This document shows positions 55,239 through 56,928 of a stretch of 64,000 nucleotides of DNA, piece by piece. Position 1 is the first letter of the stretch, and each line of letters opens with the position of its first letter. The stretch is from Naegleria gruberi (lineage: Eukaryota). A model generated the notes under the pieces. It had not been told where the DNA came from. It made no database searches and was given only the letters and a program-made list of their open reading frames with translations. The DNA is taken from assembly GCA_000004985.1 (NCBI GenBank), contig GG738904.1. One strand, 5' to 3'. The translations under genes were made by a program, and so were the position numbers.

Positions 55239-56928
55239 ATGGCTTTAAGCGAAATTATTTTGGGAATTGTTTGCGTTTTTGCTGCAATTCTTCTCTTCTT
55301 CCTCATTTCAATTTATAATAATTATAAGAAAGTGAGTCACATTCCAGGTGCTTTCCAATTCTTCTTGACTTTTAAGAATATTCCAATCATTTCACCTTAT
55401 TTGAGTTTCGATGGACACAAGAGAATGGAACAATTGGTCAAAACTCACGGAGATCCAAAAACTGGACTTGTCAGATTATCCATGTTCGATAGAAATATGG
55501 TTGTAGTTTCAGATAGAGACATGTTGAAGGAATTGTTGGTCGTTAAGGGTGGAATTTTCATCAAATCTTGGAAATTATATGAAGTTTTCAATGCTTTCGG
55601 CAAGAATATCTTATCAATTCTCGATGGTACCAGTGATTCATGGAAAAATCATCACAAAGTAGCTTCAGGTGCTTTTGCTTCTAAAAATTTGGAATACATG
55701 TCAAGAGTTGCCTCAAAATCTTTGGATTTGTGTAAGGAAAGTAAATGGGATGGTGAAATGGAAAAGGCATTGAAGGAAGGAAAGGAAGGTATTATTATTG
55801 ATACCAATGCTGATTTTAGTGATATTACTTTGGGTAAGTTTCGAATTTTGACATTGTCATGTTGACCTTTCGAATAATAGACGTTCTTGGTAAGGCTGCT
55901 TTCGGTTTGGACTTTTCCATCTTTGATGAAACTAACCCAGAAGGTAGAATTTTCAGAAAATCCCTCGAAAAGATGTTTACCACTGGTGTAATCTTAAAAC
56001 GTTTCGTCGGATTAAATCCAGTCCTTTCCTGGGCTTTCCCATGGGCTTGCAAATATACTGGTTTAGATAAGGCAGTAAAAGTTGTGAGTGATAAGTTGGA
56101 TGCAATCATTGCGGAAAGAACTCGTGAAGTAGAATTGCGTGGAATGGAAGATGGAAACACATCCGAAACTGGTGTTGAAGAAAGAAAGGATTTGTTGAGT
56201 GTTTTGGTTGAAGCCAATTTCATTCAAAAGGGAATCTTGTCAGGTGATGAACTCAAATCTGACGCTTATATCTTTTCGCTTGCTGGGTATGTATTCGAAT
56301 TTTAAACTATTTGTCCTAATTTATTTTCATAGACATGAGGTTCGTATTTGCAAATTTACAATTTTTTGTAATGATTTTTTTATTTGAAATTTTAGACAAC
56401 TTCAACAACTTTACAATGGGTTTGTTACGAATTATCAACAAAACCAGATATTCAAAATAAGATTCGTGAAGAGATTGATTTACATCTCGGAAAGGGTGTA
56501 AATGCCAGAGCTCCAAACTTTGACGATTATCCAATTATGAACTATGTCAATGCTGTCATTATGGAAACTGCAAATAGAAGTGATCGAAACTGGGATAAAC
56601 CTTTAGAATTCATTCCAGAAAGATATCCAATGAATGCTGAAGAACAATTGAGAATTCAACATGATTTCACTTGGATTCCATTCTCTATGGGTAATCGTAA
56701 ATGCATTGTAAGTACTTTTTGAAAATTTCACAAGTTTACAAAATTTTTCAGGGTTTCAAGTTTGCTCAAATTGAAGCTTTTACAATTCTTGTAAGATTAC
56801 TTCAATTCTATGAATTAGGATTGGATAATGATGAATCTAATCCAAAGGATCAAATTGTTGATGTTCCTGGCGTTACAGTTCGTCCAGGAAATTGTAGAAT
56901 TATTCTCAAACCAAGAAAGGATCTTTAA
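55239..56928 (+). CDS. Cytochrome P450 (copy 2), 5 exons including a 7-nt micro-exon; it has an internal deletion of the ExxR/beta region and may be a pseudogene
   Basis: Exons 55239..55833, 55881..56286, 56333..56339 (acatgag), 56396..56707, 56752..56928, all in frame. Motifs: IFSLAG|HE|TTSTTLQW and FSMGNRKCI|GFKFAQ. After VIMET the sequence jumps to ANRSDRNWDKPLEFIPERY, which omits about 40 aa present in copy 1 (LRLHPPV...). Confidence 0.7.

What the first reader, a model, noticed from the sequence alone, without database searches (positions are those of the whole stretch)
56520..56620. P450 copy 2 lacks the ExxR arginine and the following beta region (in-frame deletion of about 40 aa)
Aligned to copy 1 (VMECLRLHPPVVSMVKTCAKSTKIGKTSIPKGSCIYVNAKACHLYGEDF...FAPERF), copy 2 goes from VIMET straight to ANRSDRNWDKPLEFIPERY, with the junction at 56569/56570. 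No GT-AG intron could hide the missing segment. The ExxR motif is near-universal in P450s, so copy 2 is probably non-functional despite its intact heme loop (FSMGNRKCIG) and splice sites. Both P450 paralogs in this window are therefore structurally damaged. The orphan fragment at 39061-39178 begins with the very sequence that copy 2 has lost.
Basis: partly seen in the sequence, partly recalled or inferred. Interest (0 to 1): 0.5.

Follow-up and report, generated by a model that had tools for sequence, protein, structure and literature searches.

The report
Naegleria P450 gene with core deletion
One cytochrome P450 gene of the amoeba Naegleria gruberi has cleanly lost 111 bases that encode a core part of the enzyme, so it is most likely a freshly disabled gene: an ordinary case of gene decay.

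Summary
The window is Naegleria gruberi NEG-M nuclear DNA. The P450 gene at 55239-56928 has five exons, including a 7-nt microexon, and gives an intact 498-aa reading frame. It passes from ...NYVNAVIMET (ends 56569) straight to ANRSDRNW... (starts 56570).

Every full-length relative examined carries 37 more residues here, not about 40. These are the N. lovaniensis ortholog at 72% identity, two further Naegleria-type genomic loci, and four closer paralogs.

On a confident model of a paralog, the lost block is the end of helix K with the ExxR arginine, four beta strands and the start of helix K'. The missing DNA is not hidden in an intron. Only a decayed 79-91 nt relic of its first half exists in the window, at 39103-39181, inside a 5.09-kb insertion that splits the other P450.

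Outside the deletion, copy 2 shows no decay. It has no stops or frameshifts, canonical splice sites, an unaccelerated amino-acid rate, and dN/dS of about 0.15, like its intact orthologs.

Best reading: a real and evolutionarily recent in-frame deletion that very probably abolishes P450 function, giving a nascent pseudogene or null allele. Loss of function is inferred, not shown. This is ordinary biology of low interest.

The parts
55239..56928 (+). P450 'copy 2' gene. Exons are 55239-55833, 55881-56286, 56333-56339 (7-nt microexon), 56396-56707 and 56752-56928 (including the stop). The product is 498 aa.
   Evidence: The spliced model is in frame, all introns are GT-AG and 44-56 nt long, and the model restores the family motifs DITL|DVLGKA and AG|HE|TTSTT. 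Pfam p450 E=1.4e-54. It is 72% identical to N. lovaniensis C9374_001718.
56569..56570 (+). Deletion junction. 111 nt (37 codons) are missing between ACT (T394) and GCA (A395).
   Evidence: Protein and DNA alignments to orthologs and paralogs. The Pfam match splits here.
56540..56569 (+). Remnant of helix K (NYVNAVIMET). The Glu of ExxR is kept and the Arg is lost.
56570..56626 (+). Retained K'/meander start, ANRSDRNWDKPLEFIPERY, including the PERF-type motif PERY (56615-56626).
56681..56707 (+). Heme-thiolate loop FSMGNRKCI, completed by G at 56752-56754 after a 44-nt intron. It is intact.
56333..56339 (+). 7-nt microexon ACATGAG that completes AG-HE-TT of the I helix.
   Evidence: Only this exon restores the frame and the motif. 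The relatives L001, L002 and copy 1 encode these bases contiguously with the upstream exon.
39103..39181 (+). Orphan P450 fragment MNYVILETLRIHPPVT(-2 nt)VFRVAKKTTT. It is a relic of the copy-2 lineage that preserves the first 58 nt of the segment copy 2 has lost.
   Evidence: tblastn and DNA alignments. It matches P0001 and L001 (VFRVAKKTTT exact) far better than copy 1, and it shares GAAACT (E-T) only with copy 2.
33082..34089 (+). P450 'copy 1' exon 1. It ends ...GCA GGT CAT GAG (AGHE) and then runs into the insertion.
   Evidence: It is annotated in N. gruberi only as a 337-aa truncated protein, P0034.
34090..39179 (+). 5090-bp insertion splitting copy 1, flanked by CATGAG at 34084-34089 and 39180-39185. 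It carries a Myb-domain gene (P0032), an acidic ORF on the minus strand, a minisatellite and, at its 3' end, the orphan fragment.
39186..39842 (+). Copy 1 intron (39186-39233) and exon 2 (39234-39842), with an intact ExxR (ECLR) and beta region.

Best explanation
Copy 2 is the N. gruberi ortholog of N. lovaniensis C9374_001718. It belongs to a Naegleria/Willaertia P450 family whose nearest solved relatives are CYP97, CYP3A and CYP46.

In the N. gruberi lineage it suffered a simple 111-bp in-frame genomic deletion. The deletion removes the last turn of helix K with the ExxR arginine, strands beta1-4, beta2-1, beta2-2 and beta1-3 (which include substrate-recognition site 5), and the start of helix K'. 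The Arg of ExxR bridges helix K to the meander, and the lost strands form part of the active-site wall. The product is therefore expected to fold or bind heme poorly and to be catalytically dead.

The rest of the gene is undecayed, so the lesion is evolutionarily recent. The gene is a nascent pseudogene, or a null allele in the sequenced strain.

- Shown: the deletion, its extent, that it is derived, and the lack of decay elsewhere.
- Inferred: loss of function and recency.
For: - Nine full-length relatives carry the 37 residues that copy 2 lacks. The three genomic ortholog loci examined (N. lovaniensis, Logan contig L001, metagenome contig L002) encode them contiguously.
- The orphan at 39103-39181 shows that the N. 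gruberi lineage once had the segment: E-T followed by LRIHPPVT..VFRVAKKTTT.
- On the AF2 model of paralog P0002 (mean pLDDT 87.7), the lost block is residues 391-427. That is the end of H381-393, strands E399-404, E408-410, E413-415 and E420-424, and the start of H425-429.
- The Pfam match breaks at the junction.
- Even Arg-to-Lys in ExxR co-segregates with loss of a plant P450's product, and ExxR mutants impair several P450s (PMC5790262).
- Signs of recency: an intact 1497-nt ORF, four canonical introns, 12 private substitutions against 14 for the intact L002, non-significant relative-rate tests against L002 and mostly against P0001 and L001, and dN/dS 0.14-0.16 against 0.15 between intact orthologs.
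- Context of family loss: the only N. gruberi protein of this family found in the protein database is the truncated copy-1 product P0034. There is no model of copy 2, whereas N. lovaniensis has at least 9 members.
Against: - There is no frameshift, stop or splice defect, and no detectable relaxation of constraint. A tolerated or even selected short form is therefore not excluded.
- dS is saturated (about 1.6-1.8), so dN/dS mostly reflects the long period before the deletion.
- No second N. gruberi strain, read set or transcript could be examined, so fixation and expression are unknown.
- Loss of function rests on structural reasoning, not on an assay.
Confidence: 0.7

Rival explanations
1. The deletion is an assembly or cloning artefact, and the real NEG-M locus carries the 111 nt. 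A related variant is that the deletion is real but sits on only one haplotype of a diploid, heterozygous strain, while the other allele is intact.
For: The window is a gapped draft scaffold with N runs at 985-6105, 7514-13723 and 59750-60919. Naegleria is regarded as diploid, and heterozygosity is reported for N. gruberi (PMC9928731). The complete lack of decay elsewhere in the gene is what an artefact would also give.
Against: The junction lies in unique, non-repetitive coding sequence 3 kb from the nearest gap. The orthologous sequences have no direct repeat at the two breakpoints that could cause a collapse. The deletion is exactly 37 codons. The second P450, 16 kb away, is also damaged, and N. 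gruberi has no annotated intact member of the family, which fits real decay.
Confidence: 0.12
2. The short protein is functional. It would be a P450-derived protein that tolerates loss of the ExxR arginine and the beta1-4 to beta1-3 unit, or has a new role such as heme binding without mono-oxygenation, and it would be maintained by selection.
For: The deletion is in frame and at a clean codon boundary. The ORF, the microexon, the splice sites, the heme loop, PERY and AGHETT are all intact. There is no rate acceleration. Flanking residues are identical or conservative relative to orthologs. ExxR is not strictly universal: the CYP157 family lacks it (Rupasinghe et al. 2006, cited in PMC3990721).
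Against: The CYP157 proteins substitute residues but keep the fold elements. Here four core strands and SRS5 are gone. No relative in 5.8 billion clustered proteins shares the short architecture. The one apparent parallel, P0009, is a gene-model intron hiding a 1-nt frameshift. An in-frame outcome has a 1 in 3 chance anyway.
Confidence: 0.08
3. The deletion in copy 2 and the 5.09-kb insertion in copy 1 are products of one rearrangement or repair episode. A piece of copy 2's K-helix region would have been copied into the junction at copy 1 while copy 2 was repaired with loss of 111 nt. This explanation can hold alongside the best one.
For: The orphan straddles the left breakpoint of the deletion, from -33 to +58 nt, and sits exactly at the right-hand junction of the insertion. 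Both genes are otherwise intact, so both lesions look recent. They lie 16 kb apart on the same strand.
Against: - The orphan duplicates 33 nt that copy 2 still has, so it is not the excised piece.
- It differs from copy 2 by 2 substitutions and a 6-nt gap in the shared 33 nt, and has a 2-nt deletion. It therefore looks older than either lesion, or derives from another paralog.
- The insertion's Myb gene has a 95%-identical copy on another scaffold, so the orphan may simply have travelled with duplicated donor DNA.
- A 91-nt fragment drawn at random from a 1.6-kb gene overlaps a given 111-nt segment about 13% of the time (my estimate).
Confidence: 0.1

Closest known systems
Cytochrome P450 pseudogenes and null alleles caused by small deletions or core-motif lesions, for example the soybean sg-5a allele (R376K in ExxR of CYP72A69, PMC5790262)
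   Same: The gene is otherwise intact, and a lesion hits the K-helix ExxR/meander interaction, which is needed for heme binding. Loss of function follows with no stop codon or frameshift.
   Different: Here the lesion is a 37-residue deletion that also removes four beta strands and SRS5, not a point substitution. No phenotype or biochemical test is available.
CYP157 family of Streptomyces, which are P450s lacking ExxR (Rupasinghe et al. 2006, FEBS Lett 580:6338, cited in PMC3990721)
   Same: A P450 homolog without the canonical Glu-x-x-Arg pair.
   Different: CYP157 proteins replace the residues but keep helix K and the following beta strands, and the family is conserved. Copy 2 has lost the structural elements themselves and is the only member of its family to have done so.
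Naegleria/Willaertia P450 family represented by N. lovaniensis C9374_001718 (P0001), C9374_012622, C9374_003210 and C9374_013116, and N. fowleri FDP41_002883. Nearest solved structures are CYP97C1 (6l8h), CYP3A4 and CYP46A1.
   Same: 59-72% identity with the Naegleria members. The N-terminal anchor, AGHETTST, PERF-type motif and FSMGNRKCIGFKFA heme loop are the same.
   Different: Copy 2 lacks 37 residues present in all the others. It has four introns, including a 7-nt microexon, whereas the N. lovaniensis ortholog is intronless.

Membership tests
Cytochrome P450 (Pfam PF00067) | Significant match to the p450 profile over the whole domain | tested here: met
   E=1.4e-54 and 186 bits against a cut-off of 22.8. 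The match is split into two stretches, and the first ends at residue 394 and profile position 331 of 462, which is the junction.
Cytochrome P450 (Pfam PF00067) | Heme-thiolate loop FxxGxRxCxG with the axial Cys | tested here: met
   FSMGNRKCIG at 56681-56707 plus 56752-56754.
Cytochrome P450 (Pfam PF00067) | I-helix oxygen-activation motif (A/G)Gx(D/E)T(T/S) | tested here: met
   AGHETT, assembled from exon 2, the 7-nt microexon and exon 4.
Cytochrome P450 (Pfam PF00067) | K-helix ExxR (Glu and Arg) | tested here: not met
   Glu393 is kept, but the residue three positions on is Asn (E-T-A-N) and the family's Arg is deleted.
Cytochrome P450 (Pfam PF00067) | Beta1-4, beta2-1, beta2-2 and beta1-3 strands (SRS5) between helix K and helix K' | tested here: not met
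   All four strands of the P0002 model (E399-404, 408-410, 413-415, 420-424) fall inside the deleted block, residues 391-427.
Cytochrome P450 (Pfam PF00067) | Meander PERF motif | tested here: met
   PERY at 56615-56626.
Pseudogene (unitary, nascent) | Lesion that removes an essential part present in orthologs | tested here: met
   The 37-aa deletion is derived. All relatives, and the in-genome orphan relic, carry the segment.
Pseudogene (unitary, nascent) | Frameshifts, premature stops or broken splice sites | tested here: not met
   The ORF is an intact 498 codons, and all four introns are GT-AG.
Pseudogene (unitary, nascent) | Relaxed selective constraint on the lineage | tested here: inconclusive
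   No acceleration was found: Tajima tests were mostly non-significant, and dN/dS was 0.14-0.16 against 0.15 for intact pairs. However, dS is saturated and no close relative is available.
Pseudogene (unitary, nascent) | No functional protein or transcript | not testable with these tools
   No reads or cDNA of N. gruberi were reachable.

The most novel reading that the evidence does not exclude
The two P450 lesions are footprints of one recent rearrangement episode. On this reading, a duplicated 5-kb unit encoding a Myb-domain protein with LAGLIDADG-like motifs inserted into copy 1, carrying with it a copied piece of copy 2's K-helix region. The same break-repair episode left the 111-nt in-frame scar in copy 2. 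That would point to an uncharacterised, possibly endonuclease-driven, mobile unit in Naegleria that targets P450 genes.
Probability: 0.06. Interest if true: 0.5.

Novelty: new member of a known kind. Interest (0 to 1): 0.15.

Why it matters
The value is mostly for annotation. Copy 2 has no gene model in the N. gruberi protein set I could search, and copy 1 is annotated only as a 337-aa truncated protein. Both should be flagged as damaged members of a P450 family that is well populated in N. lovaniensis and present in N. fowleri and Willaertia.

If no intact paralog exists elsewhere in the genome, N. gruberi is in the act of losing this family. That is a small data point for metabolic differences between Naegleria species. 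It raises no new principle of P450 biology.

Tried and rejected
- **Hidden exon or intron.** Rejected. Exon 4 is one continuous frame, and tblastn of the lost segment finds only copy 1's own segment and the orphan.
- **Independent copies of the locus.** Exact-product look-ups of three copy-2 ORFs, the neighbouring 909-aa ORF, P0032 and P0033 found nothing on record.
- **Parallel loss of ExxR in N. lovaniensis P0009.** Rejected. The 13-aa gap is a predicted 39-nt 'intron' masking a 1-nt frameshift; the DNA encodes ...ME(C)LRTHPPV.
- **Deleted block as a mis-spliced 'exitron' or skipped exon lost through cDNA.** Rejected. The breakpoints have no GT...AG, the orphan and all orthologs are contiguous across the left breakpoint, and the only GT...CAG candidate would not be a multiple of 3 (reasoning).
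- **Microhomology or direct repeats at the breakpoints.** None seen in the ortholog proxies. The ancestral N. gruberi right breakpoint is unknown.
- **Synteny of copy 2 with L001, L002 or L017.** None detected outside the P450 itself.
- **Structure prediction of copy 2.** A paralog was modelled instead.
- **LAGLIDADG or Hom_end nature of the insertion's gene.** Unresolved. There were only weak Pfam hits at E 0.1-0.2 on one ORF, none on the joined protein, no PDB hit, an AF2 model at pLDDT 31, and no remote homologs.
- **Classical transposon features of the insertion.** No terminal inverted repeats, no LTRs, no other copy in the window and no transposase or RT domain.

Full report
**Organism and gene model**

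The window is AT-rich eukaryotic DNA with scaffold gaps. A gene inside it (36645-38966, two short introns) translates to a product identical over all 724 residues of 'predicted protein [Naegleria gruberi]' P0032. The window is therefore N. gruberi NEG-M.

The P450 called copy 2 is modelled as five exons: 55239-55833, 55881-56286, 56333-56339, 56396-56707 and 56752-56928.
- All four introns are GT-AG and 44-56 nt long.
- The model gives an uninterrupted 498-codon frame.
- It restores the family motifs DITL|DVLGKA and AG|HE|TTSTT. The latter needs a 7-nt microexon, ACATGAG.
- Pfam p450 matches at E=1.4e-54.

**The observation**

The DNA reads ...GTC ATT ATG GAA ACT|GCA AAT AGA AGT..., with the junction at 56569/56570. 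The closest relatives found in 5.8 billion clustered proteins are Naegleria and Willaertia P450s. The nearest is N. lovaniensis C9374_001718 (P0001) at 72% identity.

I recovered genomic DNA for three orthologous or near-orthologous loci: N. lovaniensis L017, a Logan contig L001, and metagenome contigs L002/L003. I built gene models for L001 and L002.

All nine full-length relatives in alignment A3 carry 37 residues that copy 2 lacks. In P0001 these read LRLHPPVTNVFRVAKKTTTIGNITIPKDTNVLINIFS. At the DNA level the gap is exactly 111 nt. The Pfam alignment of copy 2 splits at residue 394, which is the junction.

**What is lost**

An AlphaFold2 model of paralog P0002 (mean pLDDT 87.7) places the deleted block at residues 391-427. 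The block covers:
- the last three residues of helix K (H381-393), including Arg392 of ExxR;
- strands E399-404, E408-410, E413-415 and E420-424;
- the first three residues of the next helix, H425-429.

In standard P450 nomenclature (established knowledge) these are beta1-4, beta2-1, beta2-2, beta1-3 and K'. Beta1-4 carries substrate-recognition site 5. The nearest solved structures by sequence are CYP97C1, CYP3A4 and CYP46A1.

The ExxR arginine ties helix K to the meander. Even Arg-to-Lys at this position co-segregates with loss of product in a soybean P450, and ExxR mutants impair several P450s (PMC5790262). The known exception, CYP157, substitutes the residues but keeps the fold (Rupasinghe et al. 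2006, cited in PMC3990721). Loss of catalytic function in copy 2 is therefore a strong inference, but it remains an inference.

**Is the segment elsewhere?**

Exon 4 is one continuous frame, so there is no room for a hidden intron. A relaxed tblastn of the lost segment against the whole window finds only copy 1's own segment (39408-39509) and the orphan at 39127-39181. The second half of the lost block is nowhere in the window.

**The orphan**

At 39103-39181 the DNA reads ATGAATTATGTC-ATTCTGGAAACTCTTCGTATTCATCCACCTGTAACA-TGTGTTTAGAGTTGCTAAGAAGACAACCACA. This encodes MNYV..ILETLRIHPPVT, then after a 2-nt deletion VFRVAKKTTT.
- It matches the copy-2 orthogroup (VFRVAKKTTT is exact in P0001 and L001) far better than copy 1.
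- It shares the codons GAA ACT (E-T) only with copy 2.
- It starts about 33 nt upstream of the breakpoint, in sequence copy 2 retains, and covers the first 58 of the 111 lost nucleotides.
- In the shared 33 nt it differs from copy 2 by two substitutions and a 6-nt gap.

The orphan is therefore a decayed copy, not the excised piece. It shows that the N. gruberi lineage once had the segment, so the deletion is derived.

**Copy 1**

Its two halves (33082-34089 and 39234-39842) both best match P0015 and P0016, abutting at residues 366/367. They are separated by 5090 bp (34090-39179) flanked by CATGAG at 34084-34089 and 39180-39185. The donor GTTCGT of the conserved intron follows only the second CATGAG.

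N. gruberi's annotation holds only the truncated 337-aa product, P0034.

The insertion carries:
- a Myb-domain gene (Pfam E about 1e-20) whose 95%-identical paralog P0033 lies on another scaffold;
- an acidic ORF on the minus strand;
- a minisatellite.

It has no transposon hallmarks. It looks like a recently duplicated DNA unit, and the orphan may be cargo at its edge.

**Age and constraint**

Outside the deletion, copy 2 is undecayed.
- Private substitutions at otherwise invariant sites number 12, against 14 for the intact L002.
- Tajima relative-rate tests are non-significant against L002, and mostly so against P0001 and L001. One of ten is below 0.05, and the same tests show L002 'accelerated' against P0001.
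- Nei-Gojobori dN/dS is 0.14-0.16 for copy-2 pairs and 0.15 for the intact L001-L002 pair, with dS saturated at about 1.6-1.8.
- Residues flanking the junction are identical or conservative.

The neutral orphan accumulated two indels in 91 nt. Copy 2 has none in 1497 nt. The simplest reading is that the deletion is much younger than the orphan and recent on the scale of species divergence.

**Family context**

In both P450 searches the only N. gruberi protein was P0034. N. lovaniensis contributes at least nine members, and N. fowleri and Willaertia several each. Copy 2 itself has no N. gruberi gene model, so unannotated paralogs elsewhere cannot be excluded. As far as the data go, the two remaining members of the family in N. 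gruberi are both damaged.

**Alternatives**

- *Assembly collapse.* Unlikely. The site is unique coding sequence 3 kb from the nearest gap, and the breakpoints in orthologs share no repeat. No reads could be checked, and a heterozygous allele is possible; the genus is regarded as diploid and heterozygosity is reported (PMC9928731).
- *A functional short form.* Not excluded by the intact frame, but no relative shares the architecture. The one apparent parallel, P0009, is a gene-model intron masking a 1-nt frameshift.
- *A mechanistic link between the deletion and the copy-1 insertion.* Suggested by the orphan straddling the breakpoint, but weakened by the orphan's divergence and by the second copy of the unit elsewhere.

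**Verdict**

The best explanation is a real, recent, in-frame deletion that very probably inactivates an otherwise intact, unannotated P450 gene. This is ordinary gene decay and a new instance of a known kind. Its value is for annotation and for comparing Naegleria P450 families.

Noticed in passing
window 56287-56395: A 7-nt microexon (ACATGAG, 56333-56339) lies between a 46-nt and a 56-nt intron and supplies the H-E of the I-helix AGHETT motif. In L001, L002 and copy 1 these bases are contiguous with the upstream exon, so the upstream intron looks like a lineage-specific gain 7 nt from an older intron.
   Followed up: partly
window 33082-39842: P450 copy 1 is split at its exon-intron boundary by a 5090-bp insertion (34090-39179) flanked by a 6-bp CATGAG duplication. 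[quoted passage not shown] N. gruberi's annotation contains only the truncated 337-aa N-terminal product (P0034).
   Followed up: yes
window 36645-38966: The insertion encodes a 724/746-aa protein (P0032) with three Myb repeats. Its C-terminal half contains LAGLIDADG-like strings (LLGAYLADGDGGYF and FFEGSVQGDGTLE). Support is only weak Pfam hits (LAGLIDADG_3 at E=0.1 and Hom_end at E=0.2 on one ORF), and the AF2 model failed at pLDDT 31. The only homolog in 1.8 billion representatives is a 95%-identical N. gruberi paralog (P0033) on another scaffold, so this is a recently duplicated, species-restricted gene of unknown function.
   Followed up: partly
window 34680-35050: A minisatellite of GGTACC-containing units (CACAGGTACCATCACAGGTAC and similar, spacing 12, 32 and 44 nt) lies inside the insertion.
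   Followed up: no
L016 2925-2975 (N. lovaniensis PYSW02000036.1, gene C9374_008893 = P0009): The annotated protein lacks 13 residues at ExxR because the gene model places a 39-nt 'intron' over a 1-nt frameshift. The DNA still encodes ...VIME(C)LRTHPPVVGV.... This is either a sequencing error or a second Naegleria P450 damaged in the K helix.
   Followed up: partly
window 55239-56928 compared with L017 6001-7443, L001 and L002: Intron content of orthologous P450 genes varies widely across Naegleria: none in N. lovaniensis, one in L002, two in L001 and four in N. gruberi. Introns near AGHE and near the Cys loop sit at slightly different positions, through sliding or independent gains.
   Followed up: partly
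window 58972-59532: An ORF encodes a histone H3-fold protein (...[27 protein letters not shown]...) with a long Thr/Pro/Lys-rich repetitive N-terminal tail. It may be a centromeric or other H3 variant.
   Followed up: no
L017 1-4808 and 12231-13316: The N. lovaniensis ortholog of copy 2 sits among mobile-element-type genes (DDE_Tnp_1_7 transposase, HTH_OrfB_IS605, RNase H). There is no synteny with the N. gruberi locus outside the P450.
   Followed up: no
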